This document shows positions 11,201 through 61,959 of a stretch of 64,000 bases of DNA, piece by piece. The stretch is taken from contig JAQUEL010000001.1 of NCBI GenBank assembly GCA_028685295.1, forward strand, positions 31,865-95,864. The letters are read 5' to 3'. The notes under the pieces are model-generated. The model had not been told where the DNA came from, searched no databases, and was given only the letters and a program-made list of their open reading frames with translations. How positions within the stretch are numbered: the first letter of the stretch is position 1; each line of letters opens with the position of its first letter. The position numbers and the translations under genes are program-made. This stretch comes from a bacterium (lineage in GTDB: Bacteria; UBP13; UBA5359).

Positions 11201-11986
11201 GTGAGGTACTTGTCGAATCTAAAAAAAGCATTGCCCGGAATTATGGTTTTGATACTCGGTTACTTAGCAATGAGTATCATCAGCAGTATAACTGGGAGCC
11301 AGGCAGGAATAAGCGGTGCATTACCTTATTTTATCGGCATAATTACGCTTTGCCTGTCGACATATTTTCTTTCAAGGATGGATTTCTCCAGTGGCTTGAT
11401 CGCCGGCTTGGTAATAAGCGGTCTACTCTTTCTTATTGCCTCCAGCTATCTGCTACATGAAGCCATGATTAACCTTTGGATAATGGCTTCTGCCATATGG
11501 ATGGCTTATATCGTAAGCCTGCTGATTCGGGAGGTGAATATACTTTTCCCTATAGCTTTGGTAGCTGCGTTGGCTGATATTTGGAGTGTTTACTACGGTC
11601 CCACTGCCAAGATGCTGCAGAATGAAGCCCTTGTTGATAAGATGATCGTTACTTATCCGGGACCCGCTGGTGGCCCGCATTTGCCGCTCTTCGGTTTGGG
11701 AGATGTGCTCTTCTTTTTCTTATTCGTTCTGGTAATGAGAAAGCTTAAGCTGTTTAATCCTTTCAGATATATTCTACTCTCCTTGTCCTTAGTCGTAGCC
11801 GGTATAATAGCTTTTGCTTACCGGCAAAGTGTTCCAGGCATTCCTTTCATGTCAGCAGCGTTGCTGTCAACTTTAAGTGGAGAGTTGAAGCTCAGCCATG
11901 ATGAGCGTCGCTATCTAGCTTATCTGTTTGGCCTGATCTGTTTCTTGATTGCGATTGGTATATCTTTCACTTTTTTGGGTAGGTGA
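11201..11986 (+). CDS. polytopic membrane protein with GxGD-type intramembrane aspartyl protease-like motifs (presenilin/SPP A22-like)
   Basis: About 9 predicted TM helices. Motifs AALADIWSVYYGP (compare presenilin YD-LVAVL-PKGPL) and LFGLGDVLFFFLFVLV (compare GLGDFIFYSVLV); PAL-like PGIPFMSAAL. The CDS itself is solid; the family assignment is by motif only. Confidence 0.45.
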   Translation: MRYLSNLKKALPGIMVLILGYLAMSIISSITGSQAGISGALPYFIGIITLCLSTYFLSRMDFSSGLIAGLVISGLLFLIASSYLLHEAMINLWIMASAIWMAYIVSLLIREVNILFPIALVAALADIWSVYYGPTAKMLQNEALVDKMIVTYPGPAGGPHLPLFGLGDVLFFFLFVLVMRKLKLFNPFRYILLSLSLVVAGIIAFAYRQSVPGIPFMSAALLSTLSGELKLSHDERRYLAYLFGLICFLIAIGISFTFLGR

Positions 11987-47422: not shown

Positions 47423-47893
47423 TTGTCGCAGTTATGCATTAAAATATATATCGTTATAACCCTTATATTTATGACATACCCGCCCGCCTTTGGTGCTGGT
47501 GATTCGAGCCGTGCAGGGAAAGCCCCGAAAGACGGTAGATGCGATATCGTCACCTGGGCCAAACGCTGCCTGGGCAAACCTTATGTCTGGGGCGGCAACG
47601 GCAGGAAGGGCTACGATTGTTCCGGTTTTGTCAGGGCTGCTTACAATCGTTATGGTCTAAGATTGCCCAGATCTTCAGCCGCGCAATACAGGGTTGGCAC
47701 TTCGGTAAGCCGGAGCGCTTTACGCCCTGGAGACAGAGTCTTCTTCAGCACCTATCGACGTGGGCCGTCTCACGTCGGCATATATATAGGTAACGATAAA
47801 TTCATCCACGCATCATCCTCAAAACGACGTATCACCATAGACCGGTTATCATCTCGGTATTACAGGGCACGCTACATCGGCGCCAGGCGTTAG
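47423..47893 (+). CDS. secreted NlpC/P60 family peptidase
   Basis: TTG start after SD AGGAG. Signal peptide. Motifs YDCSGFVRAAY, HVGIYIGNDKFIHAS. Confidence 0.8.
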   Translation: MSQLCIKIYIVITLIFMTYPPAFGAGDSSRAGKAPKDGRCDIVTWAKRCLGKPYVWGGNGRKGYDCSGFVRAAYNRYGLRLPRSSAAQYRVGTSVSRSALRPGDRVFFSTYRRGPSHVGIYIGNDKFIHASSSKRRITIDRLSSRYYRARYIGARR

Positions 47894-47973: not shown

Positions 47974-49308
47974 TTGCGTTATAAGACGTTTCCTCAGGGT
48001 ATTCATCTCAGATACCATAAGCAGGCAACCGCCGGTAAGCCGACAGTAACAGCTAAAGCACCTGCTGTAGCTGTAGTACCGCTGATTCAACATATCGGTG
48101 TCCCTTGTATTCCTCAAATAAACGTAGGCGACCATGTATTTATGGGGCAAAAGATCGGTGATGCCGAAGCTTTGATAACCGCACCGATACATTCGCCTAT
48201 ATCTGGAAAGGTGATGGCGCTGGAGGCGCGTCCTCACGTTATGCGACGAGACGTGTTGAGCGTAGTCATCGAAAACGATGGAGAGGATGAACTGTATCCG
48301 GATATAATGCCGTACCCTGACTGGGAACGCCTTGATCCTGACACACTTAGAAACATTATCAGGGAAGGTGGTATTGTCGGCATGGGCGGAGCTGCATTCC
48401 CAACGCATATCAAGCTGGCACCTCAATCTGATAAAAGCATCGATGCCGTACTTATTAATGGAGCAGAATGTGAAGATTATCTTACTGATGATAACTGCCT
48501 GATGGTAGAGCATCCTGAGTGGGTGATTGGCGGCGCCCGGATCATCTCTCATATACTCGGTAATGTTAAAATCGTTGTCGGTATTGAAGCTAATAAGCCA
48601 GATGCACTAGCGGCAATAAGGCAAGCTGCCGGAGAGGGTGACGACATAAGCGTAATTGCTCTTGATACCAAATATCCACAGGGCGGAGAGAAACAGATGG
48701 TCAAAGCACTCCTGGACAGAGAAGTGCCTTCAGGTGGTTTGCCGTCTGAAGTAGGAGTTGTGGTCAACAATGTAGCTACCGTTGCTAAAATTTTTGAGTT
48801 GATAACAACCGGGATGCCGCTGATATCCAGGGGAGTAACTCTTTCCGGGCCGGGTGTAAGTGCGCCCGGGAATCTGATTGCCCGTATTGGTACCAGTATG
48901 GAGGATCTTATAAGCGAATGCGGTGGTTATAAGGGAAAAATCGCTAAGGTCATTATGGGCGGCCCGATGACAGGCATATCTGTATTTACAACACTTGTAA
49001 CTCTTACCAAGAGTATAGGCGGCGTTGTGGTAATGCGGCATGAGGATATATGTCATGAGGACCCGGTGGTATGCATAAGATGCGCTCGTTGTGTGGATGC
49101 CTGTCCGGTTTATCTGATGCCGATTTCTCTTTACCACTACTCTCGTTCTCTAAATTATGACCAAGCGGTGGAGGCATATGGATTGTTCGATTGCATCGAG
49201 TGCGGTTGCTGCTCTTACGTATGTCCGGGCAGGTTACCGCTTATGGAATCGATAAAGCATGCCAAAGCTGAGATAAATAATAAAAGGCAAAAGCAGCATG
49301 GAAGGTGA
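47974..49308 (+). CDS. rnfC: Rnf electron transport complex subunit C
   Basis: TTG start after SD GAGGAGG. NADH/FMN-binding core; two CxxCxxCxxxCP clusters near the C-terminus. Confidence 0.9.
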   Translation: MRYKTFPQGIHLRYHKQATAGKPTVTAKAPAVAVVPLIQHIGVPCIPQINVGDHVFMGQKIGDAEALITAPIHSPISGKVMALEARPHVMRRDVLSVVIENDGEDELYPDIMPYPDWERLDPDTLRNIIREGGIVGMGGAAFPTHIKLAPQSDKSIDAVLINGAECEDYLTDDNCLMVEHPEWVIGGARIISHILGNVKIVVGIEANKPDALAAIRQAAGEGDDISVIALDTKYPQGGEKQMVKALLDREVPSGGLPSEVGVVVNNVATVAKIFELITTGMPLISRGVTLSGPGVSAPGNLIARIGTSMEDLISECGGYKGKIAKVIMGGPMTGISVFTTLVTLTKSIGGVVVMRHEDICHEDPVVCIRCARCVDACPVYLMPISLYHYSRSLNYDQAVEAYGLFDCIECGCCSYVCPGRLPLMESIKHAKAEINNKRQKQHGR

Positions 49309-49311
49309 AGA

Positions 49312-50280
49312 ATGGCTGATCCCTTATCAAGGGAGCTTATAGTCTCATCGGCACCTCATGTTAGAGGGCGGGATAATATACGTCGCATGATGTATGATGT
49401 CGCCATCGCTCTCATTCCAGCCGGTATTGCGGCAGTATATTTTTTTGGCCTGCGCAGTCTGCTCATCGTTCTCATCACCGTTGCCAGTGCACTGGGTGCT
49501 GAGGCGCTGATACAGAGGGCCATGGGAAGGCGTGTGACTATAACTGACGGTAGTGCTCTGGTAACAGCCGTTCTGCTTGCCTATAACCTGCCTCCGACCG
49601 TGCCGCTTTGGTTACCCTTTATCGGAGCGTCGATAGCTATCGGGCTCGGTAAAATGGTTTATGGCGGTTTGGGATACAATCCATTCAACCCGGCTCTGAT
49701 ATCCAGGACAATCTTACTTGCGGCATGGCCCGTGCTTATGACCAGTTGGGTTGTTCCGTTCGATGCCGTCGCTACCGCCACGCCGCTTGCTGTGATTAAG
49801 ATGGGAGATAATCTGCAGGCCGTCAAAGACCTGCTGCATGTTGACAGCAATCTATCGCTTTACCGGCAGATGTTTTGGGGGAACCATGGCGGTTGTCTTG
49901 GAGAGACATCTATTCCGGCCCTATTATTAGGTGGCGTATATCTTATGTATAGGCGTGTGATAACATGGCATATACCCATAACCTATGTATCGACAGTGGC
50001 AGTTACCGCCTTGCTTCTGGGGCGGGACCCCATCTTCCATCTTCTGGCTGGAGGGCTCATTCTAGGTGCTCTTTATATGGCTACCTGTCCGGTAACAACA
50101 CCTGTTACTCCTCGGGGGAGGATATATTTCGGACTGGGGGCCGGATTGTTAACCATGCTGATAAGGGCTTTCGGTTCACTGCCGGAGGGGATTATGTATT
50201 CTATTCTATTGATGAATGCGGCCACACCGCTGCTGGACAGATATACGCGGCCTCGCATTTACGGCAAGGGGGCGAGATGA
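49312..50280 (+). CDS. rnfD: Rnf complex subunit D
   Basis: Polytopic NqrB/RnfD-like; 322 aa; position after rnfC. Confidence 0.9.
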   Translation: MADPLSRELIVSSAPHVRGRDNIRRMMYDVAIALIPAGIAAVYFFGLRSLLIVLITVASALGAEALIQRAMGRRVTITDGSALVTAVLLAYNLPPTVPLWLPFIGASIAIGLGKMVYGGLGYNPFNPALISRTILLAAWPVLMTSWVVPFDAVATATPLAVIKMGDNLQAVKDLLHVDSNLSLYRQMFWGNHGGCLGETSIPALLLGGVYLMYRRVITWHIPITYVSTVAVTALLLGRDPIFHLLAGGLILGALYMATCPVTTPVTPRGRIYFGLGAGLLTMLIRAFGSLPEGIMYSILLMNAATPLLDRYTRPRIYGKGAR

Positions 50281-50813
50281 AAGAGGTGATCAAGCTCGGT
50301 CTGGCATTGTTGGTGATATGTGCCATAGCCGGATTGGCGCTGGGGCTTACATATAATATAACATTACCCAGGATAAAGGCACAGGAGGAAGCGGCCAGGC
50401 AAAGATTATACCGGAATCTTCTTCCCGGGGCCGATATTTTCAAAGAGATTACAATCGGTACCCATAAATACCAGATGGGGTTGCTGCATGGCCAAAGGAT
50501 AGGCGTGGTTTCTACTGTTACGGGCAAGGGCTATGGCGGTGACATTGTTATCGTAGTCGGCATAGACCAGGTAGGAAGGGTAACCGGGGTCAGTATCTTA
50601 TCGCAAAATGAAACACCAGGGTTAGGCAGCAAAGCGGCACAGCTACCCTTTCTCAGGCAGTATGCCGGTAAAGGTGCGGAAGAACTGAAATTGAGGGTAG
50701 ATGGAGGAAAGATCGATGCTGTAACTGCAGCCACAATAACTTCCAGGGCTGTGACAAGCGGGGTGAAGGGTGCGGTGGATCAGTATCTCCACGATAAAGA
50801 GAGGTTGAAATGA
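50277..50813 (+). CDS. rnfG: Rnf complex subunit G (FMN-binding)
   Basis: ATGA overlap with rnfD. N-terminal TM; FMN-binding motif region TGKGYGG...TPGLG; AVTAATITS motif. Confidence 0.85.
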   Translation: MKEVIKLGLALLVICAIAGLALGLTYNITLPRIKAQEEAARQRLYRNLLPGADIFKEITIGTHKYQMGLLHGQRIGVVSTVTGKGYGGDIVIVVGIDQVGRVTGVSILSQNETPGLGSKAAQLPFLRQYAGKGAEELKLRVDGGKIDAVTAATITSRAVTSGVKGAVDQYLHDKERLK

Positions 50814-51433
50814 GACCTATCGAAGATTTTAGCAACGGACTTTTCCGGGAAAACCCGACCTTCAGGCTTATTCTGGGAATGTGTCCTGCATTGGCGGTTA
50901 CCACCGCCGCCATTAACGGTCTCGGCATGGGTCTGGCCACTACTTTTGTGTTGGTATGCTCCAATACCATCATCTCTCTTTTACGTAAAGTTATCCCGGA
51001 GGATATAAGGATACCTGCCTATATCGTCGTGATTTCCAGTTTCGTAACGGTTGTTCAATTGGTAATGCAGGGGTTCGCTCCAGAACTATACGGCATTCTG
51101 GGAATTTTCGTTCCCCTTATTGTGGTCAATTGTATTATTCTGGCCAGGGCTGAGGCATTTGCCGGAAAATATGGTGTTGTGCGATCGGCAGCCGATGGCC
51201 TGGGGATGGGATTAGGATTTACCTGGGCGCTTACTTTGCTGGGCGCTGTACGTGAAGTCATCGGTACCGGCAGTCTGTCCAATACATATCGGTTGTTTCT
51301 CATACCGCAGTTCTCTTTAAAAATTATCCGTGGGTTCTATGATCCGGCTTTGATAACGATCCTGGCTCCGGGAGCGTTTATCACGCTTGGTCTGATGATA
51401 GGCTTAATGAATCTTCTTACAAAGCATCGTTGA
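50810..51433 (+). CDS. rnfE: Rnf complex subunit E
   Basis: ATGA overlap with rnfG; NqrD/RnfE-like 6-TM protein. Confidence 0.9.
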   Translation: MRPIEDFSNGLFRENPTFRLILGMCPALAVTTAAINGLGMGLATTFVLVCSNTIISLLRKVIPEDIRIPAYIVVISSFVTVVQLVMQGFAPELYGILGIFVPLIVVNCIILARAEAFAGKYGVVRSAADGLGMGLGFTWALTLLGAVREVIGTGSLSNTYRLFLIPQFSLKIIRGFYDPALITILAPGAFITLGLMIGLMNLLTKHR

Positions 51434-51445
51434 GGTGAACAACGT

Positions 51446-52030
51446 ATGGATATCAGAGAGATAATGATTGTTATCATCAGTGCTGTTCTAATAAATAATT
51501 ATGTCTTGCAGCGTTTTTTAGGTTGCTGTCCTTATCTGGGGGTATCCAAGCAACTGGAAACCGCTCTGGGCATGGGTATGGCCGTCACCTTTGTCATGGC
51601 TATAGCTTCAGCCTTTACCTGGATAGTGCAACATTATATCCTGCTGCCGTTGGATCTAATTTTTCTGCAAACTATAGCCTTTATTCTGGTCATAGCTGCG
51701 CTTGTTCAATTTGTTGAGCTGGTGATCAGGAAAAGCAGCCCGACTTTATATCAGGCGCTGGGCATCTATCTGCCTTTAATAACGACCAATTGTGCTGTTC
51801 TTGGCGTGGCGGTAATTAATATCAGAGCCGGTTACGGCTTTTTACCCAGTTTGGTTAACGGAACTGCAGCAGCAATAGGTTTTACCTTAGCTATAATATT
51901 GATGGCTGGAATAAGAGAGCGGATTGAATTGAGCGATGTCCCACCGGCCTTGCGTGGCGTACCGATAGCATTAATAACCGCCGGCCTTCTTTCTCTGGCA
52001 TTCTTCGGATTTGCCGGCATGGTAAAATGA
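51446..52030 (+). CDS. rnfA: Rnf complex subunit A
   Basis: NqrE/RnfA-like 6-TM protein; 194 aa. Confidence 0.9.
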
Positions 52031-52088
52031 GGGCGGCAGTGGATATTGTGCGACGATGTGGTTATAATGGCATGAGGGGGCTGCACCG

Positions 52089-52901
52089 ATGAGTTCCAAT
52101 ATAATTTTATCGGTGGCTGTCCTAGCTGCGTTGGGCTTTATTCTAGGTGCCGGCCTGGCTTATGCCGCCAGAGCTTTTGCCATTACCAGAGATCCGCGCA
52201 TTGATGCCGTGTTGGCGGAGTTGCCCGGCGCCAACTGTGGTGCCTGTGGCTATCCAGGATGCTCCGGGTATGCTGAAGCTCTCGTTATCGGCAGCGCTCT
52301 TATAACCGGGTGTCCGGTTTCCAGAAAGGAGGCCAGCGAACGTATAGCAGATATTATCGGGCAGGAAGAGAGAATGAACATTAACTCCGATAAACTGATA
52401 TCGGTAGTCAAATGCTGTGGTAATAACAATACGTCTGCCAGGATCTTTAATTATTCCGGTCTGGAGGATTGCCGAGCTGCGACACGCTTTTACGATGGCC
52501 CTAAAAAATGCCGGCATGGGTGCCTGGGTATGGGTACATGTATAAGCGTTTGTCCGTTTAACGCTATAACGATGTCTCCCCTCAAGTTACCTGTTATAGA
52601 CAGAGATAGGTGTGCCGGATGCGGTCTATGCGTTGATGCTTGTCCAAGGCAAGTTATGGTCATGATGCCGGAAAGAAGCGGCATACAAGTGCTTTGCAAT
52701 TCAGGAGAAGCGGCCAAAGCGGCACGGCAAGTTTGTAGCAAGAGCTGTATTAAGTGTCATAAATGCGCTAATATCTGTCCTGCCGAAGCTATCTTCTTTG
52801 ATAATGGCCCGGCAAAGATCAATTTCGATTTATGCACTAATTGCGGGTTATGTGTGCAAGAATGCCCCGTAAAGTGTATTTACGAAACTAATAGAGGGTA
52901 G
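52089..52901 (+). CDS. rnfB: Rnf complex subunit B (ferredoxin-like, multiple [4Fe-4S] motifs)
   Basis: N-terminal TM, CGACGYPGCSGY motif, several CxxCxxCxxxCP clusters. Confidence 0.85.
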   Translation: MSSNIILSVAVLAALGFILGAGLAYAARAFAITRDPRIDAVLAELPGANCGACGYPGCSGYAEALVIGSALITGCPVSRKEASERIADIIGQEERMNINSDKLISVVKCCGNNNTSARIFNYSGLEDCRAATRFYDGPKKCRHGCLGMGTCISVCPFNAITMSPLKLPVIDRDRCAGCGLCVDACPRQVMVMMPERSGIQVLCNSGEAAKAARQVCSKSCIKCHKCANICPAEAIFFDNGPAKINFDLCTNCGLCVQECPVKCIYETNRG

Positions 52902-52933
52902 AATAAATATATATTATCAAAAAGGGGTGTATT

Positions 52934-54358
52934 ATGCCGGCAAATATTGTCTTTGCGGGGATTGTACCACATCCACCACTGCTGATCCCGGCTGTGGGCG
53001 GAAAAAAGGTGGACGACGTAGCTGCAACCGTTGCGGGTATGCAGGAGATGGTAAGACAGCTACATGGTTCCGGTGCTGAGACGGTTGTTATAATTACTCC
53101 TCACAGCCCTTATGTCGACAGCAGCATTACTGTTCTGGATCTGCCCGTTCTACAAGGAGATCTCTCCTCTTTTGGTGTTCCTGAAGCTGAGTATGAGATT
53201 GCAGGGGATAAGGAATTGGCTGGAGAGATATTGAATCAGGCTAATTTGGCAAATGTAGCTGTAAATGGTGTTACTCCGGAAACGGTAAGTGCTGTCGTTT
53301 GGCCGACTCTGGATCATGGAATATTAGTATTTCTGTACTATCTGCAGGAAGCAGGTTTACAGATCCCTATGGTAGCTCTTTCAATAGGTCTGGATACATC
53401 ATATGAGGATCACTACGTTATGGGAGAAGCTGTCCAGAAGGCCGCTATTGTTCTGGATCGGAAAGTTGCTTTCGTTGCCAGCGGAGATTTGTCTCACAGA
53501 TTGACGTTATCGGCACCGGCGGGATACAGCCCCAGAGCATATGAGTTCGATGAAGCCGTCATAGCGGCTCTGTTAAAAGCCGATCCTATTTCTCTGGTAA
53601 CCATTGATCCGGATTTGCGTAAGGAGGCCGGGGAATGCGGTTATCGCTCAGCTATGGCGCTACTGGGAGCGGTCAACGGATTAGATGTTGAAGCTGTCAA
53701 ACTTTCATATGAAGGGCCTTACGGCGTTGGATATCTGAATCTGTATTATCGCATTAAGGGCTTGAAGCCGAAACGAAACCTGGCCGCCGCTGTCTACAGT
53801 GCAGAGCGTTTCTCTGAAGATGCGGATATTATCAGAGGAAAGGAACTACTTACCTTAGCCAGATATGCAGTGGAAAGCTACGTTAATACAGGGGAGAAGC
53901 TTGATAATCCCAGCCGAATAGCTCCTCATTGGCAGCAGAGCAAGGCAGGAGCCTTTGTCTGTATAAAGCATGAGGGTGGATTGCGCGGATGCATAGGCAC
54001 TGTTTATCCAACCGAGGAGAGCATTGCGGAAGAGGTGTGCCGTAATGCCATCAATGCCGCTGTTGCAGATCCTCGTTTTCCCGGCATAAGCCGGCACGAA
54101 TTGTCCCGGTTGTCTTATGCAGTAGATCTCCTCCATGAGCCTGAGCTCATATCCGGTCCGGAGGAACTGGATCCTGTTGTATATGGAGTTATCGTTAAAG
54201 CAGGTGCCAAAAGCGGCTTGCTGCTGCCCAATCTTGAGGGGGTTGATACGCCGGAACAGCAGATAGATATTGCCAGACGTAAAGCCGGTATACGAAATAA
54301 CGAAGATATTCAGCTGTGGCGTTTCAAAGTGGATAGATACGAGGAATATCAAGATTGA
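52934..54358 (+). CDS. fusion protein: class III extradiol dioxygenase (LigB/Memo-like) domain + C-terminal AMMECR1 domain
   Basis: N-terminal HPPLL/HSP and SGDLSH motifs (LigB family). C-terminal AMMECR1 hallmark GAFVCIKHEGGLRGCIGT. Confidence 0.7.
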   Translation: MPANIVFAGIVPHPPLLIPAVGGKKVDDVAATVAGMQEMVRQLHGSGAETVVIITPHSPYVDSSITVLDLPVLQGDLSSFGVPEAEYEIAGDKELAGEILNQANLANVAVNGVTPETVSAVVWPTLDHGILVFLYYLQEAGLQIPMVALSIGLDTSYEDHYVMGEAVQKAAIVLDRKVAFVASGDLSHRLTLSAPAGYSPRAYEFDEAVIAALLKADPISLVTIDPDLRKEAGECGYRSAMALLGAVNGLDVEAVKLSYEGPYGVGYLNLYYRIKGLKPKRNLAAAVYSAERFSEDADIIRGKELLTLARYAVESYVNTGEKLDNPSRIAPHWQQSKAGAFVCIKHEGGLRGCIGTVYPTEESIAEEVCRNAINAAVADPRFPGISRHELSRLSYAVDLLHEPELISGPEELDPVVYGVIVKAGAKSGLLLPNLEGVDTPEQQIDIARRKAGIRNNEDIQLWRFKVDRYEEYQD

Positions 54359-54389
54359 CCGTAACGGCGACTCAGTATAAAATAGCTTT

Positions 54390-54995
54390 ATGAGTTCGGT
54401 AATGATGCTCCATTGCACGAAAGGAACAATCCGAGTGATTAAGCATATAAATAAGAATAGGGTTCTGCTGCTGGTGATCGATATGCAGGAGCAGCTGATG
54501 CCGGTTGTCTGTAATAGTATGGAAGTAATCGGCCAGGCTGAAAGAGCCGTAGCCGTTTTTCAGGCTTTAGATCTGCCGATAATGGTAACAGAGCAATACC
54601 CCAAAGGACTGGGAGCAACGGTCGCCAGGCTTCAGCCTTTTCTGAATCGATGCAACCTCTTTGAGAAAATGAGCTTTAGTTGCTGTGGCGAAGAGAGCTT
54701 CAGCAGGGCTCTTGACGATTTAGGCAAAACGGATATAGTGATCGCTGGTGTGGAGGCACATGTCTGTGTGTTGCAGACGGCCCTTGATTTGACGGATAAG
54801 GGGTATAATCCGTATATTATGGTGGATGCCGTTTCATCGCAGCGTGAGATGGATATGGATATCGCGTTGAAACGAGCGGAATCATCCGGGGTTGTTCTCA
54901 CAACTGTGGAAAGCGTAATCTTTGAGATAATAAGAACGGCGGGAAGTAAGGAGTTTAAGGCATATCGCTCAGCTCTTGCTCGTCTTGTTCCATAA
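54390..54995 (+). CDS. isochorismatase-family cysteine hydrolase
   Basis: LLLVIDMQ N-terminal motif, catalytic Cys in GVEAHVCVLQT. True start possibly GTG 54435 (SD AAGGAA 8 nt upstream). Confidence 0.75.
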   Translation: MSSVMMLHCTKGTIRVIKHINKNRVLLLVIDMQEQLMPVVCNSMEVIGQAERAVAVFQALDLPIMVTEQYPKGLGATVARLQPFLNRCNLFEKMSFSCCGEESFSRALDDLGKTDIVIAGVEAHVCVLQTALDLTDKGYNPYIMVDAVSSQREMDMDIALKRAESSGVVLTTVESVIFEIIRTAGSKEFKAYRSALARLVP

Positions 54996-55010: not shown

Positions 55011-56099
55011 ATGGCTAAAAAAATCTTTGTTGCCGCTACTATGCGCAATGACGGCAAAACCATGCTTTCGTTGGGGCTTATATCGGCTCTACGGAAGAGA
55101 AATTTGCGTGTCGGTTTTATCAAGCCGGTGGGGCAACGTTATCTGGAGATCGACGGACATAAAGTAGACGAAGATTCCATTCTGGCAAAAGAGGTTTTCA
55201 ATCTTGACGATGCCTTGTCGGATATGAGTCCCCTTGCGATAGCAAGGGGGTTTACCGAGGATTACATTGAATCCGGGAATTACAAGCCTTTGCGTGAGCG
55301 GATTATGGATTCCTATGCCAGAGTGGCTGCCGGTAAAGACTTTGTTGTTGTAGAAGGTACGGGACATGCTGGTGTGGGCTCTGTTTTTGATCTATCCAAC
55401 GCTACTGTTGCCGGAATGCTTGGAGCAAAGGTAGTGATTGTCTCCCAGGGAGGCGTCGGCAGACCGATAGATGAGATAAGTCTTAGCTCAGCCTTATTCA
55501 AGCTTGAAGGTGTGGATGTCATAGGCACGGTTATCAATAAGGTTTTACCGGCCAAGTATGAAAAAATCAGTCATTATCTGAGATTAGGTCTGGGGAGGAA
55601 GAATATAAGCCTGCTTGGATCGTTACCATATAATGATGTGCTCTCCAATCCTACTATAGATCAGATAGTGGAGGGGTTGGAGTGCGAAATTCTCAGCGGC
55701 AGCGAAGTCCTTAACAGAATGGTTAAGGATTTCTTCATTGGTGCCATGACCCCGCATCAGGCTTTGACCGTTATAAAGCCGGGCTCTTTGCTGATAGCGC
55801 CGGGAGATCGTGAAGATATGCTTTTGGCGGCTATGATCAAGCATAATTTGTCAGATGAGCCTATGATCGCCGGGATACTCCTGACAGGCGGCATAATGCC
55901 GCATACTTCTATTCTGGATTTATTGAAGAAGGTTAACTTGCCTATTCTGGCTACGACAATGGATACGTATAAGGCAGCTTCGGCCATTAACGATCTAACG
56001 GTTAAGATACGCGGCACAGACAGTGTAAAGATAGCACTCGCTGCTGAGATAATCGAGAGTTATATTAATGTTGATGCGCTTTTGGATTTATTGAATTAA
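55011..56099 (+). CDS. phosphotransacetylase N-terminal regulatory domain protein (AAA_26 + DRTGG), stand-alone
   Basis: Resembles the N-terminal ~350 aa of long-form Pta: KTMLSLGLISAL...KPVGQ P-loop-like region, DRTGG-like LLTGG. Confidence 0.7.
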   Translation: MAKKIFVAATMRNDGKTMLSLGLISALRKRNLRVGFIKPVGQRYLEIDGHKVDEDSILAKEVFNLDDALSDMSPLAIARGFTEDYIESGNYKPLRERIMDSYARVAAGKDFVVVEGTGHAGVGSVFDLSNATVAGMLGAKVVIVSQGGVGRPIDEISLSSALFKLEGVDVIGTVINKVLPAKYEKISHYLRLGLGRKNISLLGSLPYNDVLSNPTIDQIVEGLECEILSGSEVLNRMVKDFFIGAMTPHQALTVIKPGSLLIAPGDREDMLLAAMIKHNLSDEPMIAGILLTGGIMPHTSILDLLKKVNLPILATTMDTYKAASAINDLTVKIRGTDSVKIALAAEIIESYINVDALLDLLN

Positions 56100-56123
56100 G
56101 CGCAAAAGCATCGGGAGGTAAGA

Positions 56124-57125
56124 ATGAGCATTATTGAAAGGATCAGACAGGAAGCGGTCTCTTTGGATAAGCGGATAGTCTATCCGGAAGGTGAGGATGA
56201 ACGATTGATAATCGCATCCTCTATGGTAACAAGTGAGGGAATAGCCAGAGTCTTTTTACTGGGTGATGAAAAAGTTATTAGAGAGAAAGCTGCTGAAAGA
56301 GGTGTTTCTCTATCCGCTGTGCAGATCATAAACCCTCTTCTTTCCGAAAATTTAGAGAAATACGCCGAATTGCTCTACGAATTGCGCCGCAGCAAAGGAA
56401 TGACCCGCGAAGAGGCGCTGGAAACAGCTAAAGATCCCATGTATTATGCTGTACTTATGGTAAAGAACGGTGACGCCGATGGAGAGGTAGCAGGAGCTTC
56501 CCATGCAACGGCGGATACAGTAAGGCCTGCATTACAGGTGATCAAGACGGCGCCCGGAGTGAATCAGGTATCCAGCTTTTTTGCTATGGTCGTACCTGAT
56601 CATAGATTTGGTGAAGATGGAACTTTTATTTTTGCGGATTGCGGCTTGACACCTGATCCCACTGCTGAGGGTTTGGCTGATATAGCTATTGCCTCAGCAG
56701 ATACGGCTGTAAGGCTGCTGGGATTTTCAGAGGCCAAAGTGGCGCTGCTCTCTTTTTCTACCAAGGGAAGCGCCAGCCATCCTCTGGTGGATAAGGTAGT
56801 GGAGGCAACCCGTATTGCGCATGAAAAACGCCCGGATCTGAAGCTTGATGGCGAATTACAGGCAGATGCAGCGATTATTCCTGATGTGGCTGCTAAAAAG
56901 GCCGAAAGCAGCCCTCTGAAGGGCCGGGCCAATGTTTTGATCTTTCCAGATCTGCAGGCGGGCAATATAGGTTACAAGCTGGTGGAACGGCTGGCAAAGG
57001 CTGAGGCTTATGGACCTATACTACAGGGGCTTGCCAAACCGGTGAACGATTTATCGCGTGGATGCAATGTAGAGGACATCGTGAATGTTACTGCCATAAC
57101 GGCGTTGCAAGCTAAGCAGATCTAA
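56124..57125 (+). CDS. pta: phosphate acetyltransferase (catalytic domain only)
   Basis: Pta core motifs [41 protein letters not shown]. Confidence 0.9.
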
Positions 57126-57260
57126 GGGCCTCTGGTCGGGTGATAAGACAAAGAAGGGCTTGTGCGCTGAGTTACCGGCTGGAGTTGTTTCACAGCAGCC
57201 GTGTTGGCTCTTGCCAGAAATACGGATTAGTGGTTAATATATGAAGCATCCGGTCCGTTT

Positions 57261-57281
57261 GAGAAGTGAGAAGTGAGAAGT
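57261..57281. repeat. tandem heptamer GAGAAGT x3 in the leader of the MeTr methyltransferase gene
   Basis: gagaagtgagaagtgagaagt read directly; lies in a 267-nt non-coding leader. Confidence 0.5.
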
Positions 57282-57392
57282 GAAATCGGAGTGAATTCTT
57301 TGAAATTGGGGCACGTTTGCAGGTTAAGGCACTCGCCGATGCTTTGCGAGCTTTGACGCGATAGGCACAAAGACACTGAAAGTGAGGAACAA

Positions 57393-58211
57393 ATGATCAT
57401 AATTGGTGAAAAGATAAATACCAGCCGTAAGGAAGTCGAAGCTGCTGTAAGGAATGGCGATTCACATTTTATCGGTAACCTCGCTCGCATGCAGGCTGAG
57501 GCAGGTGCCGACTATATCGATGTCAATGCAGGTACCTTTGTAAATGATGAACCTGTGATGTTGGAATGGCTGGTGAAGACGGTTCAGGCTGTTGCAGATA
57601 AGCCTTTATGCATCGACACTCCGAACCCTCTGGCTCTGGCAAAGGCGCTTGAAGTTCATAAAGGCAAGGCTATGATCAATTCAATAACTGCCGAGACGGC
57701 GCGTTATGATAATACGCTGCCTCTGATAAGGGATTACGGCTGTGCTGTTATTGCCCTCTGTATGGATGACAGAGGCATTCCCGAAGGGGCGACGGAAAGA
57801 ATTGACATAGCAGGCAGGCTTTACAACAGTCTGCTTGCCGGCGGTGTGAAAGCCGAAGATATTTATTTCGATCCCCTGCTTCGTCCCATCAGTACAGGAG
57901 GAGATAGCGCCAAGGTGGCTTTAACCGTCATAGAAGGTATTATGCGTCTTTATCCAAGCGTACATACTATATGTGGTTTAAGCAATATCTCCTACGGTCT
58001 TCCTCACAGAAGACTGCTGAACAGAGCATTCCTTGCTATGGCGGTGATGGTTGGTCTGGATGCGGTCATACTGGACCCGAACGATAAGGATCTGATGGCG
58101 GAATTGCTGGCTGCGGAAGCTTTGTCGGGTCGGGATGAATTCTGTATTAATTATATAACAGCATCAAGAGGGTCTGCTCTCGGCACCTGTAACGGCTTGT
58201 CGGAGGCATAG
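57393..58211 (+). CDS. pterin-binding (MeTr) domain methyltransferase, AcsE/MtrH-like methyltetrahydrofolate:corrinoid methyltransferase
   Basis: Pterin-binding domain motifs: IIGEKIN, GADYIDVNAG, MINSIT, YFDPL, GLSNISYGLP. 272 aa stand-alone. Confidence 0.75.
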   Translation: MIIIGEKINTSRKEVEAAVRNGDSHFIGNLARMQAEAGADYIDVNAGTFVNDEPVMLEWLVKTVQAVADKPLCIDTPNPLALAKALEVHKGKAMINSITAETARYDNTLPLIRDYGCAVIALCMDDRGIPEGATERIDIAGRLYNSLLAGGVKAEDIYFDPLLRPISTGGDSAKVALTVIEGIMRLYPSVHTICGLSNISYGLPHRRLLNRAFLAMAVMVGLDAVILDPNDKDLMAELLAAEALSGRDEFCINYITASRGSALGTCNGLSEA

Positions 58212-58270
58212 CCGGTAAATTATTGTGCTTATTGGGGATACTAAAAAGGAAGGCAGGATAGATAATAGTT

Positions 58271-59116
58271 ATGTATAAGATAGAATATGCAGCTGATCTG
58301 GCCGAGAGTATCAAGCTCCTGGTCGTATTGGCTCCAATGGTGGCGGCCAAGGCACAGGCCGGGCATTTTGTAGTTGTAAGAAATGGAGAAAAGGGTGAGC
58401 GCATCCCGCTGACCATTGCAGGTTATGATCGTCAAAAGGGCACGATAACTCTGGTGGTGCAGAGTGTAGGCAAGAGTTCTTCCGAAATCTGTGCTTTACA
58501 GGAGGGCGATGCTTTGACCGATGTGCTGGGGCCGCTGGGACATGCTACACATATAGAACGTGTTGGGACCGTTCTGTGTGTCGCGGGCGGCGTGGGGGTT
58601 GCGCCTGTATATCCTATAGCGAAGGCCTTCAAGGAAGCAGGAAACAGGCTTATCTCTGTTATAGGCGCACGATCAAAAGATTTGATTTTTTTTCAGACCG
58701 AGATGAAAGCCGTAAGCGATGTGGTTCACTATACTACGGATGACGGCAGTTACGGGCTACATGGCTTTGTAACTGATGCTGTCAAGAATATCGTCGAGGG
58801 CGGAGAGAAGGTGGATAAGGTTATTGCCATCGGACCTCTGCCGATGATGAAAGCGGTAGCTGACCTTACCCGAAATTATGGCATATCCACTGTGGTGAGT
58901 CTCAATGCCTTAATGGTGGATGGTACCGGCATGTGTGGCGGTTGTCGTGTTACCGTAGGCGGAGAGACAAAGTTCTCCTGTGTTGATGGACCGGATTTTG
59001 ATGGGCATAAAGTTGATTTTGCAGAGCTGCTGAGAAGACAGACTCGTTTCAGTGAGGAAGAAAAGATGGCCTATGGCAGGTACAGAAAAGAGGAACACAA
59101 GTGTCGGATAAGGTAA
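58271..59116 (+). CDS. nfnA: NfnA/SudB-like ferredoxin-NADP+ reductase subunit (PyrK-like FAD/[2Fe-2S] protein)
   Basis: PyrK-like FAD/NAD fold with C-terminal CGGC..C cluster (GTGMCGGCRV...CVDGP). Paired with the GltD-like gene downstream. Confidence 0.75.
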   Translation: MYKIEYAADLAESIKLLVVLAPMVAAKAQAGHFVVVRNGEKGERIPLTIAGYDRQKGTITLVVQSVGKSSSEICALQEGDALTDVLGPLGHATHIERVGTVLCVAGGVGVAPVYPIAKAFKEAGNRLISVIGARSKDLIFFQTEMKAVSDVVHYTTDDGSYGLHGFVTDAVKNIVEGGEKVDKVIAIGPLPMMKAVADLTRNYGISTVVSLNALMVDGTGMCGGCRVTVGGETKFSCVDGPDFDGHKVDFAELLRRQTRFSEEEKMAYGRYRKEEHKCRIR

Positions 59117-60492
59117 GAATGCGGGAACAATCTCCCGAAGAGCGGATAAAGAACTTTAATGAGGTGCCTTACGGTTATGATGAACGTGAGGCTTTACAGG
59201 AAGCTTCGCGTTGCCTGGGCTGCAAGAAGCATCCCTGTACCCGGGGATGCCCGGTTGAGGTGAATATCCCCGAGTTCATTGCCAGGATAAAGGAGAGCGA
59301 TTTTATAGGCGCTGTTGAAGTTATTAAGCGCAAGAACAGCCTGCCTGCCATTTGTGGACGTGTCTGCCCCCAGGAGAATCAGTGTGAATCTTATTGTGTT
59401 CTAGGCCGCAAGGGTGAGCCGGTAGCCATAGGCAGGCTGGAGAGGTTTGCGGCTGATTATGAGAGAGAGCATCGTCAGACCGGTATGACGGCTGCACCAT
59501 CCTCTGGAAGTAAAACCAAAGTGGCGGTTATCGGTGCTGGCCCGGCCGGCCTTACTGCAGCTGCCGATCTGGCCTTGTTGGGATACGAGGTTGTCCTCTT
59601 TGAGGCGTTGCATGCCCCTGGAGGTGTTCTTAGATACGGTATACCGGAATTTCGGCTGCCCAAGGCCATTCTTGATGAAGAGGTGGGATATATCCGTAGT
59701 CTCGGGGTGGATATCAGATATAATATGCTGGTGGGCGCTACGCTGTCCATTGATGATCTCTTTGCCGATGGCTATAAGGCCGTCTTTATCGGTACAGGCG
59801 CCGGGCTGCCGTACTTTTTGGGTATCCCCGGTGAAAATTTAAACGGCGTTTACTCTGCCAATGAATTTTTGACCCGTGTAAATCTGATGCGAGCCTACCG
59901 TTTCCCGGAGTATGACACTCCGGTACGCATCGGGCGGCATGTTGCCGTAGTAGGCGGCGGCAATGTGGCCATGGATGCTGCCAGAACAGCTTTACGCCTG
60001 GGTGCGGATAAAGTGAGCATAGTTTATAGACGCGCCTGGGAAGAGATGCCGGCTCGTGCGGAAGAAAAACATCATGGGCGCGAGGAGGGTATTGATTTTA
60101 AGCTTCTGAACAACCCTGTTGCCATTCTGGGCGATGAGAAGGGCTGGGTCAAGGGTATGGAATGTGTTCGTATGGAACTGGGCGAACCGGATGAAAGCGG
60201 TAGGCGTCGGCCTGTGGTTATTGAAGGATCGGAATATGTGCTTGATGTGGATACGGTTGTCGTGTCCATCGGTCAGGGACCAAACCCATTGCTTGTGCAG
60301 AGCACCAGCGGTCTGGAGACGAATAAACGGGGTAATATAACGGCTGACCCCGATACTATGGCCACCAGCATTCCCGGCGTTTATGCCGGTGGCGATATTG
60401 TTACCGGAGCAGCTACTGTCATAGCCGCTATGGGTGCCGGTAAGATTGCTGCCGGGAATATAGATAAATATTTAAAGATCAAAGGCTTGTGA
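59101..60492 (+). CDS. nfnB: NfnB/SudA-like NADPH-dependent oxidoreductase (glutamate synthase small-subunit family)
   Basis: GltD-like N-terminal Fe-S motifs (CLGCKKHPCTRGCPVEVNIP; CGRVCPQENQCESYC); FAD/NADPH motifs VAVIGAGPAGL and VVGGGNVAMD. Confidence 0.8.
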   Translation: MSDKVRMREQSPEERIKNFNEVPYGYDEREALQEASRCLGCKKHPCTRGCPVEVNIPEFIARIKESDFIGAVEVIKRKNSLPAICGRVCPQENQCESYCVLGRKGEPVAIGRLERFAADYEREHRQTGMTAAPSSGSKTKVAVIGAGPAGLTAAADLALLGYEVVLFEALHAPGGVLRYGIPEFRLPKAILDEEVGYIRSLGVDIRYNMLVGATLSIDDLFADGYKAVFIGTGAGLPYFLGIPGENLNGVYSANEFLTRVNLMRAYRFPEYDTPVRIGRHVAVVGGGNVAMDAARTALRLGADKVSIVYRRAWEEMPARAEEKHHGREEGIDFKLLNNPVAILGDEKGWVKGMECVRMELGEPDESGRRRPVVIEGSEYVLDVDTVVVSIGQGPNPLLVQSTSGLETNKRGNITADPDTMATSIPGVYAGGDIVTGAATVIAAMGAGKIAAGNIDKYLKIKGL

Positions 60493-60531
60493 ATTTGATC
60501 ATAGGCTTAACTAGCACAGAGGAGGTTGGAT

Positions 60532-61374
60532 ATGGCGGTTGTTATCGATGGTAGGACAGTAGCTGACACCGTTTATAGCGAATTGACGGTGCGTATGAAT
60601 GTTCTTATACGAAAGGGTGTGCGTCCCGGGCTGGCGGTAGTGCTGGTCGGCGATGATCCAGCCTCGAGAATATATGTCAATATGAAGAAAAGAGCTTGTG
60701 AGCGTTTTGGTCTTTATTCGGAAGAACATAAACTGGAAGCAAAAGTGCCCCAGCGCGAACTTCTGAACTTGATAAAGCGGCTGAACGCTGATCCAGCCAT
60801 ACACGGCATATTGGTTCAATTGCCGTTGCCTCCCGGATTTAATGCCGGTGAGGTTATCAATGCTATTGATCCGCGGAAGGATGTAGATGGTCTGCATCCG
60901 TTGAATATCGGCAAGCTGTTGATAGATAATACAGCTTTTATCCCCTGTACGCCGGCTGGTATCATCAAGCTGATAGAGCATACCGGCGTACCGATGGTCG
61001 GCAAACAGGCCGTAGTAGTGGGACGGAGCAATATGGTCGGCAAGCCTGCGGCTATTCTGTTGCTAAGAGAGAATGCCACGGTGACGATATGTCACTCAAA
61101 AACGGCTAACCTGTCGGAGGTATGCCGGCAGGCGGATATTCTGGTAGCTGCAGTCGGTAAGCCTGAAATTGTTACCGGGGATATGGTAAAGCCCGGGGCC
61201 GTGGTGATCGATGTCGGCACAAATAAAGTAGGCGATCGTCAGGTAGGAGATGTCAATTTCGACCAGGTGGAAAAGGTAGCCGGCTATATTACTCCTGTGC
61301 CGCGCGGCGTAGGGCCGATGACCATAGCCATGCTGATGAGCAATACTGTGGAAGCTGCGGAAAGGTCGTTATAG
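60532..61374 (+). CDS. folD: bifunctional methylenetetrahydrofolate dehydrogenase / methenyl-THF cyclohydrolase
   Basis: ATG 60532 after SD GGAGG; motifs [27 protein letters not shown]. Confidence 0.93.
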
Positions 61375-61378
61375 TGAA

Positions 61379-61945
61379 ATGATAGATAAGGACAAAATTG
61401 AAACAGCCGTGCGAATGATACTGGAAGCTGTAGGCGAGGACCCTGAGCGCGAAGGCTTGCGCGATACTCCGGCCCGGGTAGCCAGAATGTACGGCGAAAT
61501 CCTTAAGGGGACCGGCGTGGACCCTACCAGTATCGTGCGTGTTTTTACTGAAAAAGAGTATGATGAGATGGTACTGGTGAAGGATATTCCTCTTTATTCG
61601 CTCTGTGAGCATCATATGCTTCCCTTCGTAGGCAAGGCCCATGTGGCATATATACCGCAGAGCGGCAGAGTGACCGGTCTTTCCAAACTTATCAGGATTG
61701 TTGATATGTATGCCAGGCGATTACAGGTACAGGAGCGCCTGACTGCGCAGATTGCCGATGCTCTGGAGCAGCAATTGAATCCCATGGGCGTTATGGTAAT
61801 CATTGAGGCAGAGCACATGTGTATGTCCATGCGTGGCGTACAGAAACCGGGTACATCGACCGTTACATCGGCTGTTCGTGGTATATTCAGAACAAAGATG
61901 GCGACTAGGTCGGAGATGATGGATCTGCTTGTTAAAGATAAGTAG
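61379..61945 (+). CDS. folE: GTP cyclohydrolase I
   Basis: Motifs [30 protein letters not shown]. Confidence 0.9.
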
Positions 61946-61959
61946 AGAAAGGATAAAAT

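What the first reader, a model, noticed from the sequence alone, without database searches (positions are those of the whole stretch)
52934..54358. LigB/Memo-like extradiol-dioxygenase domain fused to AMMECR1, without a neighbouring radical-SAM partner
AMMECR1 (protein A) and Memo (protein B, LigB superfamily) usually occur as separate adjacent genes together with a radical-SAM enzyme (AmmeMemoRadiSam system). Here both domains are in one 474-aa polypeptide (SGDLSH motif N-terminal; GGLRGCIGT motif C-terminal). No CxxxCxxC radical-SAM gene is present within 10 kb on either side. The flanks are rnfB and an isochorismatase-family hydrolase.
Basis: partly seen in the sequence, partly recalled or inferred. 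Interest (0 to 1): 0.5.

Follow-up and report, generated by a model that had tools for sequence, protein, structure and literature searches.

The report
Common LigB–AMMECR1 fusion lacking neighbouring radical-SAM gene
This gene encodes a widespread, already catalogued two-domain protein of anaerobic bacteria (a dioxygenase-like domain fused to an AMMECR1 domain) whose function is still unknown; its only unusual feature is that its usual radical-SAM partner gene is not next to it, which is also true in roughly one species in ten.

Summary
ORF 52934..54358 (+) encodes 474 aa with PF02900 LigB (res 11-267) and PF01871 AMMECR1 (res 307-468). No radical-SAM gene lies in the 64 kb window or 10 kb beyond each end.

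The interpretation that the fusion is unusual is wrong. All 120 best database hits share the architecture, and at least 599 species genomes encode a relative. The identical protein is already in NCBI as "AmmeMemoRadiSam system protein A" and in JGI as "protein A/protein B". Balaji & Aravind described the dioxygenase-AMMECR1 fusion and its radical-SAM neighbour in 2007.

The N-terminal half is LigB/TK2203-like, not Memo proper.

Of 76 testable species loci, 67 have the TIGR04337 radical-SAM gene immediately adjacent, 2 have it 3-4 kb away, and 7 (9%) have none nearby. These seven are scattered phylogenetically.

In the window's deep-branching, apparently Bacillota-related lineage, rnfCDGEAB-fusion-isochorismatase-pta is conserved. 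Both domains keep all catalytic residues and have dN/dS of 0.07-0.11, so the gene is functional. Synteny suggests the partner gene was lost from this locus.

Whether it survives elsewhere in the genome could not be tested. This is an ordinary member of a known, biochemically uncharacterised family, and interest is low.

The parts
52934..54358 (+). CDS of the 474-aa LigB-AMMECR1 fusion protein (stop codon included)
   Evidence: ORF list. Pfam and NCBIfam domain hits. 100% identical to P0121, NCBI MDD2485000.1, named 'AmmeMemoRadiSam system protein A'.
52922..52927 (+). Shine-Dalgarno-like AAGGGG, 6 nt upstream of the ATG and 20 nt after the rnfB stop codon
   Evidence: Read directly from the sequence printed.
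52964..53734 (+). LigB-type (class III extradiol dioxygenase / PCAD-Memo superfamily) domain, residues 11-267. Invariant residues: H13 (52970-52972), H57 (53102-53104), D127-H128, SGDLSH188 (H188 at 53495-53497), C235 (53636-53638; neighbouring E234 at 53633-53635 is conserved in at least 90% of sequences) and SYEGPxGVGY (258-267).
   Evidence: PF02900 E 1.9e-34. Invariant columns. Alignment to HpaD 8iq8 matches H13, H57 and SGDLSH. Foldseek top hit is TK2203 5hee, TM 0.84.
53735..53851 (+). Inter-domain linker, residues 268-306. It includes the start of a long predicted helix (283-319). This is the region where the gene is split in a few other species.
   Evidence: AF2 secondary structure, with lower pLDDT (64-73) around residues 281-300. 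Split ORFs in L044, L049, L051 and L073.
53852..54337 (+). AMMECR1 domain, residues 307-468. Predicted active site: L-R-G-C353-I-G-T (C353 at 53990-53992) and D379-P-R-F382 (54068-54079).
   Evidence: PF01871 E 2.8e-42. TIGR04335 120.8 bits against a cutoff of 99. Motifs invariant and matching the RGChG and DxRa signatures of PMC2034487. PDB 1vaj rmsd 2.0.
47974..52901 (+). rnfCDGEAB operon immediately upstream. This is context, probably co-transcribed, and not a conserved partner of the family.
   Evidence: Pfam families on the syntenic loci L001 and L006. No convincing terminator before the fusion. This neighbour occurs only in the window's lineage.
54390..54995 (+). Isochorismatase-family cysteine hydrolase immediately downstream, occupying the position the radical-SAM gene holds in most species. 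This is context, specific to the lineage.
   Evidence: PF00857. Only a weak YcaC match, 51 bits against a cutoff of 310. Found next to the fusion only in the window's lineage.

Best explanation
The ORF is an intact, functional member of the widespread bacterial LigB-type/AMMECR1 fusion family. This is the fused form of 'AmmeMemoRadiSam system' proteins B and A.

Shown: both domains are present with every family-invariant residue. Both are under purifying selection. The protein is encoded in a tight same-strand gene string behind rnfB in an anaerobe.

Inferred mechanism: the N-terminal domain binds a divalent metal through H13, H57 and E234 (with C235), and H188 acts as general base. Because the host is an Rnf/Wood-Ljungdahl anaerobe, this domain probably does not act as an O2-dependent ring-cleaving dioxygenase. 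The AMMECR1 domain uses the exposed Cys353, with D379 and R381, to carry or transfer a group on the same substrate. In most species a PFL-activase-like radical-SAM enzyme (TIGR04337), encoded immediately next door, supplies the radical step. The substrate is unknown; the only published prediction is an RNA or nucleotide base modification.

In this lineage the radical-SAM gene has been removed from the ancestral rplM-rpsI-...-fusion-rSAM locus. The rnf operon is inserted upstream and an isochorismatase-family gene sits downstream. I consider it somewhat more likely than not (about 55:45) that the partner survives elsewhere in the genome rather than being lost altogether.
For: Domain hits are above the curated cutoffs. 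All invariant residues are retained. H13, H57 and H188 align with the corresponding HpaD motifs. The AF2 model has pLDDT 88.6, and its halves match TK2203 and extradiol dioxygenases on one side and PH0010/MM0484 AMMECR1 on the other.

dN/dS is 0.10 against the 93%-identical relative and 0.07 against the 78% one. Both domains score similarly and are comparable to rnfB (0.12-0.13) and pta (0.05-0.07).

The family is common: 120 of 120 best hits are fusions and at least 599 species encode a relative. The partner is TIGR04337 (295 and 348 bits, cutoff 220). It is adjacent in 67 of 76 testable loci and within 4 kb in 2 more.

Synteny: rplM-rpsI lies upstream in 24 loci including the window, Amidase_3 upstream in 33, and argCJB downstream in about 16. 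That points to the rSAM gene having been lost from a conserved position.

L063 and L065 show that the partner can drift 3-4 kb away. AMMECR1 is the top anaerobe-indicator Pfam, at 50.7% of anaerobes against 3.4% of aerobes (PMC13386939). The published prediction of the Cys-based active site and RNA modification is in PMC2034487 and PMC4075521.
Against: No biochemical function is known for any member of the system, so every mechanistic step is inference. The Glu234 ligand assignment rests on position and conservation only; the HpaD alignment stopped at residue 214. The presence of the partner elsewhere in the genome is untested, because only about 84 kb of the genome could be screened. Domain orientation in the model is uncertain (pTM 0.66).
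Confidence: 0.7

Rival explanations
1. The lineage has lost the radical-SAM enzyme altogether. The LigB-AMMECR1 fusion then works on its own, as AMMECR1 and Memo apparently do in eukaryotes and as AMMECR1 does in most archaea. It would carry out the non-radical part of the chemistry, or act on a substrate that needs no radical activation.
For: No rSAM gene or remnant lies in about 84 kb around the gene. The rSAM-less context is conserved across relatives at 93% and 78% identity while both domains stay under purifying selection. Seven of 76 other species loci also lack a nearby partner, in at least six independent lineages. Archaeal AMMECR1, present in 429 of 524 genomes, is linked to PIN/Zn-ribbon and NFACT genes rather than to this rSAM.
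Against: Adjacency in 88% of species, and presence within 4 kb in 91%, implies tight functional coupling in bacteria. Absence from 84 kb says little about a genome of megabase size. L063 and L065 show that relocation happens.
Confidence: 0.3
2. In this lineage the fusion has been recruited into a new functional unit with its neighbours. Rnf would supply reduced ferredoxin and the isochorismatase-family hydrolase would act as a new partner, replacing the radical-SAM enzyme.
For: Intergenic gaps are 32 and 31 nt on the same strand, with no convincing terminator. The order rnfB-fusion-isochorismatase-pta is conserved down to 78% protein identity and on at least 22 contigs.
Against: None of the 80 other species loci has an rnf, isochorismatase or pta gene near the fusion, so there is no independent recurrence. 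Conservation within one narrow lineage is expected from shared ancestry alone. The downstream genes (pta, folD, FTHFS) are central-metabolism genes with no known link to the family. The isochorismatase has a more relaxed dN/dS of 0.20.
Confidence: 0.07
3. The gene is a decaying relic of a system that stopped working once the radical-SAM gene was lost.
For: The partner gene is missing from the locus.
Against: The 474-codon ORF is intact and has an SD site. All invariant catalytic residues are kept. dN/dS is 0.07-0.11 in both domains across two divergence levels. The identical protein was recovered from many samples.
Confidence: 0.02

Closest known systems
LigB-type/AMMECR1 fusion proteins of Bacillota, e.g. 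Desulforamulus reducens MI-1 (P0061) and Thermincola potens (P0070). PGAP annotates them 'AmmeMemoRadiSam system protein A'.
   Same: Same two-domain architecture and length (465-470 aa). 41-45% identity over 98-99% of the length. All invariant residues are shared. In T. potens the chromosomal position downstream of rplM-rpsI is the same.
   Different: Those genes are followed directly by the TIGR04337 radical-SAM gene. The window gene is followed by an isochorismatase-family gene and preceded by rnfCDGEAB.
AmmeMemoRadiSam three-gene system (TIGR04335 protein A, TIGR04336 protein B, TIGR04337 radical-SAM enzyme), also described as the Memo-AMMECR1-radical SAM association (Balaji & Aravind 2007, PMC2034487; Burroughs et al. 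2019 as cited in PMC7159879).
   Same: The A component scores above cutoff. A B-like component of the same superfamily is present. The 2007 paper already noted fusions of AMMECR1 with the dioxygenase.
   Different: The radical-SAM component is not in the neighbourhood. The B-like domain is LigB/TK2203-like rather than Memo proper and only just clears the TIGR04336 cutoff, at 30.5 against 26 bits.
TK2203 of Thermococcus kodakarensis (PDB 5hee), a stand-alone LigB-family protein of unknown function.
   Same: It is the best sequence match (E 3.6e-25 with the family profile) and the best structural match (TM 0.84) to the N-terminal half. The PH and SxDxxH motifs are shared.
   Different: TK2203 is not fused to AMMECR1. 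It has P-D-S where the fusion family has the conserved E-C-G motif.
Archaeal and eukaryotic stand-alone AMMECR1 (PH0010 1vaj, MM0484 1zq7, ST0229 1wsc; human AMMECR1).
   Same: Same fold (rmsd 2.0 A to 1vaj) and the same RGC-x-G and D-x-R-aromatic motifs.
   Different: These are single-domain proteins of about 200 aa. In archaea they are linked to PIN/Zn-ribbon and NFACT genes, not to a dioxygenase domain or this rSAM.
MEMO1 (PDB 3bcz, 7l5c, 7kq8).
   Same: Same superfamily fold. It is a non-dioxygenase, metal-binding member, which makes it a precedent for non-oxygenase roles of this fold.
   Different: It is only a distant structural match (TM ~0.6, rank 37-42). There is no sequence-level match to PF01875 or to PDB Memo chains.

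Membership tests
AMMECR1 domain family (PF01871) / AmmeMemoRadiSam system protein A (TIGR04335) | Profile match above the curated cutoff | tested here: met
   PF01871 scores 144.5 bits (cutoff 25) over residues 307-468, covering profile positions 2-167 of 168. TIGR04335 scores 120.8 bits (cutoff 99).
AMMECR1 domain family (PF01871) / AmmeMemoRadiSam system protein A (TIGR04335) | RGChG motif with the conserved cysteine, and the DxR-aromatic motif (predicted active site, PMC2034487) | tested here: met
   L350-R-G-C353-I-G-T356 and D379-P-R-F382 are present and invariant in 20 of 20 aligned fusions.
AMMECR1 domain family (PF01871) / AmmeMemoRadiSam system protein A (TIGR04335) | AMMECR1 fold as in the solved structures | tested here: met
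   For the AF2 model, Foldseek gives 1vaj at E 1.7e-15 with rmsd 2.0 over 190 columns, and 1zq7 at E 1.7e-16.
LigB / class III extradiol dioxygenase family (PF02900) | Profile match above the curated cutoff, and the fold | tested here: met
   PF02900 scores 119.4 bits (cutoff 26.3) over residues 11-267. Foldseek finds 5hee (TM 0.84), aminophenol dioxygenases, HpaD, DOPA dioxygenases and LigB 1bou_B.
LigB / class III extradiol dioxygenase family (PF02900) | Metal-binding 2-His-1-carboxylate residues plus the catalytic histidine | tested here: inconclusive
   H13, H57 and H188 are invariant and align with the PH, H and SGxLSH motifs of HpaD 8iq8. E234 is at least 90% conserved, but its equivalence to the Glu ligand was not covered by the alignment. 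Ligand identities in the reference enzymes are from my own knowledge, not from a tool.
LigB / class III extradiol dioxygenase family (PF02900) | O2-dependent aromatic ring-cleavage activity | not testable with these tools
   This needs an enzyme assay. The context argues against it. The host carries Rnf and Wood-Ljungdahl-type genes, and AMMECR1 is strongly enriched in anaerobes.
Memo family (PF01875) / AmmeMemoRadiSam system protein B (TIGR04336) | Profile match to Memo models | tested here: inconclusive
   PF01875 gives no hit at E<=0.01 for the window protein, though it is recorded as a weak precomputed hit on some homologues. TIGR04336 scores 30.5 bits against a cutoff of 26, so it passes marginally. 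NF001987 'MEMO1 family protein' scores 26.8 against 295 and fails.
Memo family (PF01875) / AmmeMemoRadiSam system protein B (TIGR04336) | Closest structural and sequence neighbours are Memo proteins | tested here: not met
   No Memo chain is found in the PDB profile search at E<=0.01. By Foldseek, Memo ranks 37-42 with TM ~0.6, behind about 30 LigB-type chains.
AmmeMemoRadiSam three-component system | TIGR04337 radical-SAM enzyme encoded with A and B | tested here: not met
   There is no homologue in the window, none in the flanking 10 kb on each side and none in the related loci L001-L003 and L006-L007. It is present and adjacent in 67 of 76 other species loci.
AmmeMemoRadiSam three-component system | TIGR04337 radical-SAM enzyme encoded anywhere in the same genome | not testable with these tools
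   Only about 84 kb of this genome is reachable. The whole MAGs cannot be fetched.

The most novel reading that the evidence does not exclude
This deep-branching anaerobic lineage has lost the TIGR04337 radical-SAM enzyme entirely, yet keeps the LigB-AMMECR1 fusion under strong purifying selection. If so, the two-domain core has a radical-independent activity, mirroring eukaryotes, which keep Memo and AMMECR1 without that enzyme. That would make it a natural minimal version for working out what AMMECR1 and Memo-superfamily proteins do.
Probability: 0.3. Interest if true: 0.4.

Novelty: already known. Interest (0 to 1): 0.12.

Why it matters
It matters little as a discovery. The fusion was published in 2007 and is common, and this exact protein is already deposited and named.

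The residual value is as a data point. AMMECR1 (mutated in a human X-linked syndrome) and the Memo superfamily still have no known biochemistry. About 9% of bacterial fusion loci, including this lineage, have lost linkage to the radical-SAM partner while remaining under selection. If whole-genome checks showed true loss of the partner, that would say the dioxygenase-like/AMMECR1 pair is the functional core and the radical-SAM enzyme is dispensable, which would help in designing assays.

The miaB-fusion-miaA arrangement seen in two other genomes is a small extra hint towards the predicted tRNA/RNA modification role.

Tried and rejected
1. Decaying pseudogene. Rejected: the ORF is intact, the catalytic residues are conserved and dN/dS is 0.07-0.11.

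2. A degraded radical-SAM remnant at the locus. Rejected: the intergenic gaps are 32 and 31 nt, and tblastn with 9 probes gave only noise.

3. A functional link to Rnf, isochorismatase or pta. Rejected: these neighbours occur only in the window's lineage and in none of 80 other species.

4. A single clade of rSAM-less fusions. Rejected: the cases are scattered. L025 is 82% identical to the rSAM-positive L053.

5. Filling the gap between the 78% and 47% relatives with metagenome contigs. Two scans yielded nothing and then one 1.3 kb fragment.

6. Reading Burroughs et al. 2019 (JBC, PCAD-Memo superfamily). The paper is not held, so its content is used only as cited by PMC7159879 and from my own memory of the abstract.

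7. Finding the partner elsewhere in the genome. This is not possible with the tools. Screening could only be extended to about 84 kb.

8. Promoter and terminator scans around the gene. The counts were close to the shuffled expectation, so nothing was concluded beyond 'no obvious terminator'.

9. Literature searches for any biochemical characterisation of AMMECR1 or the AmmeMemoRadiSam system. None was found.

Full report
OBSERVATION

An AAGGGG ribosome-binding site sits 6 nt before the ATG, only 32 nt after the rnfB stop codon.

Pfam gives two clean, non-overlapping domains. LigB (PF02900) covers residues 11-267 at E 1.9e-34. AMMECR1 (PF01871) covers residues 307-468 at E 2.8e-42. NCBIfam places the C-terminal half in TIGR04335, 'AmmeMemoRadiSam system protein A', at 120.8 bits against a cutoff of 99. 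The N-terminal half only just clears TIGR04336, 'protein B', at 30.5 against 26 bits.

The flanks are rnfB, the last gene of an rnfCDGEAB operon, and an isochorismatase-family hydrolase.

No radical-SAM gene is present:
- No ORF of 100 aa or more in the whole 64 kb has a CxxxCxxC motif, apart from a ferredoxin cluster in rnfB.
- phmmer with two verified TIGR04337 proteins finds nothing at E<=1e-5.
- tblastn with nine probes gives only noise, the best being 26.6 bits at E 0.067.
- The 10 kb beyond each end of the window, read from contigs that carry the window's own terminal genes, contain no Radical_SAM gene either.

IS THE FUSION UNUSUAL? NO.

A search of the 5.8-billion-protein collection scored 7361 proteins at E<=1e-10. 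All 120 best hits are 450-510 aa proteins with the same PF02900+PF01871 architecture. Many are named 'AmmeMemoRadiSam system protein A' by PGAP, in Pelotomaculum, Thermincola, Desulforamulus, Calderihabitans, Halanaerobacter and others.

They span Bacillota, Chloroflexota, Armatimonadota, Actinomycetota, Margulisiibacteriota and others.

The window protein is 100% identical to a sequence already deposited from four NCBI MAGs under that name. JGI labels it 'protein A/protein B', so the pipeline already recognises the fusion.

The literature is explicit.

WHAT THE N-TERMINAL HALF IS

It belongs to the LigB/Memo (PCAD-Memo) superfamily but is not Memo proper.
- PF01875 does not hit the window protein.
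- A family profile finds TK2203 (5hee, E 3.6e-25), HpaD and the aminophenol and DOPA dioxygenases in PDB, but no Memo chain.
- An AlphaFold2 model (mean pLDDT 88.6, pTM 0.66) matches TK2203 best (TM 0.84). About 30 class III extradiol dioxygenase chains follow. MEMO1 appears only at ranks 37-42 with TM ~0.6.

In a 20-sequence alignment the invariant residues are H13, H57, D127-H128, S183-G-D-L-S-H188, C235-G236 (with E234 in at least 90% of sequences) and SYEGPxGVGY. H13, H57 and the SGDLSH motif align with the corresponding motifs of HpaD. From my own knowledge of LigB-type enzymes, these are the two histidine metal ligands and the catalytic base. The Glu ligand equivalence of E234 is inferred, not shown.

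The AMMECR1 half carries the invariant LRGC353IGT and D379-P-R-F382 motifs. These are the RGChG and DxRa signatures predicted to form the active site. This half superposes on PH0010 at 2.0 A.

IS THE MISSING RADICAL-SAM NEIGHBOUR UNUSUAL? IT IS A MINORITY STATE, NOT A UNIQUE ONE.

In D. reducens and T. potens the fusion is followed directly by a gene that NCBIfam assigns to TIGR04337, 'AmmeMemoRadiSam system radical SAM enzyme'. It scores 295 and 348 bits against a cutoff of 220 and is related to PFL-activase-type enzymes.

I used those two proteins as probes against the 80 best species loci. Of the 76 loci that hold enough flanking sequence:
- 60 have the partner immediately downstream.
- 7, all Chloroflexota, have it immediately upstream.
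- 2 have it 3-4 kb away.
- 7 (9%) have none within the 4-10 kb held on each side.

The seven exceptions come from different phyla. Apart from one pair (L010/L016), their nearest relatives carry the partner; L025, for example, is 82% identical to the rSAM-positive L053. So uncoupling happened at least six times independently. The two halves are also split into separate in-frame ORFs in 4 of the 80 loci, with or without the partner. Fused and split forms therefore interconvert.

THE WINDOW'S OWN LINEAGE

IF-2 is 100% and 86% identical to unclassified 'bacterium' MAGs. It then drops to 50-56% against Thermincola, Thermanaerosceptrum, Sporomusa and other Bacillota. This is a deep, unnamed lineage, apparently allied to Bacillota.

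The gene order rnfCDGEAB-fusion-isochorismatase-DRTGG/pta-(pterin-binding, folD, folE, FTHFS) is conserved in relatives whose fusion is 93% and 78% identical, and on at least 22 contigs from many samples. None of these neighbours recurs near the fusion in any of the 80 other species. The context is therefore inherited gene order, not evidence of a functional link.

Across Bacillota the recurrent arrangement is rplM-rpsI-(Amidase_3)-fusion-rSAM-(argCJB). rplM-rpsI lies upstream in 24 loci, Amidase_3 upstream in 33 and argC downstream in 16. The window still has rplM-rpsI 5.6 kb upstream, with rnf inserted in between. The most parsimonious history is that the radical-SAM gene was lost from this locus rather than that the fusion moved.

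The gene is not decaying. dN/dS is 0.10 (LigB half 0.105, AMMECR1 half 0.109) against the 93% relative. It is 0.07 against the 78% relative, where dS is near saturation. Both values are in the range of rnfB (0.12-0.13) and pta (0.05-0.07).

HOW IT MOST LIKELY WORKS

No member of this system has been characterised biochemically in the literature I could search, so everything beyond domain identity is inference.

The family is strongly associated with anaerobes. PF01871 is the top anaerobe-indicator Pfam, found in 50.7% of anaerobes against 3.4% of aerobes (PMC13386939). The host here encodes Rnf and folate-branch Wood-Ljungdahl-type genes. An O2-dependent ring cleavage by the 'dioxygenase' domain is therefore unlikely.

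My working model has three parts:
- A metal centre in the LigB-type domain (H13, H57, E234, possibly C235), with H188 as base.
- The exposed Cys353 of the AMMECR1 domain acting on the same substrate.
- In most species, the adjacent TIGR04337 enzyme providing a radical step.

The published prediction is an RNA or nucleotide base modification. In passing, I saw two genomes (L010, L016) where the fusion lies between bona fide miaB and miaA. That fits the prediction, but it is a single lineage-level observation.

For the window's lineage I cannot tell whether the partner is encoded elsewhere or is gone. I put it at roughly 55:45 in favour of 'elsewhere'. The tight coupling in other bacteria and the relocated partner in L063 and L065 favour 'elsewhere'. 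Archaea and eukaryotes use AMMECR1 without this enzyme, which keeps true loss plausible.

COMPARISON, NOVELTY, VERDICT

The protein is a regular member of the LigB-type/AMMECR1 fusion family. Every defining feature of the AMMECR1 and LigB families that could be tested is met. Membership of Memo proper is not supported. The three-component system definition fails on the radical-SAM component within the reachable 84 kb.

The fusion is already known, both published and annotated. The rSAM-less context is shared by about one species in ten.

The finding is ordinary, and I score interest at 0.12. The only reading with some novelty is complete loss of the radical-SAM partner with retention of a functional core. 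A simple HMM search of the full MAGs would settle that.

Noticed in passing
L010:3802-7650 and L016:8461-12670: In two related MAGs ('Ca. Subteraquimicrobium carltonvillense' UBA2594 and an 'Actinomycetota' MAG), the fusion has no TIGR04337 partner. It sits directly between bona fide miaB (TIGR01574, 545 and 532 bits) and, in L010, a verified miaA (TIGR00174, 334 bits); the ORF downstream of the fusion in L016 looks miaA-like but was not scanned. Both are tRNA A37 modification genes. This fits the predicted RNA-modification role, but it is only one lineage.
   Followed up: partly
L044, L049, L051, L073 (fusion region around 9900-11400 in each): The LigB-type and AMMECR1 halves lie in separate stop-to-stop ORFs. 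In L051 and L073 they are separated by an in-frame stop and a few codons; the reading frames in L044 and L049 were not checked. L044 and L049 have the radical-SAM neighbour, while L051 and L073 do not. Fused and split forms of the same subfamily coexist, unless these are sequencing errors.
   Followed up: partly
window:47974-52901 and 55011-63654: The fusion is embedded in an energy-metabolism block. Upstream is rnfCDGEAB. Downstream are a pta split into a DRTGG/AAA_26 ORF (55011-56099) and a PTA_PTB ORF (56124-57125), a pterin-binding protein (57393-58211), an NAD-binding/FeS plus Pyr_redox_2 pair (58271-60492), folD, GTP cyclohydrolase I and formate-tetrahydrofolate ligase. This suggests an acetogenic or syntrophic anaerobe.
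   Followed up: partly
window:1-64000: Every long ORF is on the + strand, and GC skew is positive in all 32 consecutive 2-kb windows (0.09-0.23). This is a strongly strand-biased, leading-strand stretch with no skew switch in the window.
   Followed up: no
window:44325-45251 and 47423-47893: Two NlpC/P60 cell-wall hydrolase paralogues bracket rplM-rpsI. The first carries LysM and SH3 domains. In other Bacillota this position is usually held by an Amidase_3 (cwlD-like) gene upstream of the fusion.
   Followed up: no
window:17492-18739: An electron-transfer flavoprotein alpha subunit has an N-terminal 2x[4Fe-4S] ferredoxin domain (ETF + ETF_alpha + Fer4). This is a FixB-like arrangement.
   Followed up: no
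L076:5372-6538: In the rSAM-less locus of 'Bacterium HR10', the gene overlapping the end of the fusion resembles eRF1 and the MSMEG_1130-family ribosome hibernation factor (109 bits, below the cutoff of 480). It is another translation-related neighbour, but anecdotal.
   Followed up: no
window:54355-54440: Gene callers disagree on the isochorismatase start, giving products of 186, 196-197 or 201 aa in different records. A promoter-like TTGACC-17-TAAAAT overlaps the end of the fusion gene (54355-54383). Site counts in the region are near the shuffled expectation, so this is not significant.
   Followed up: no
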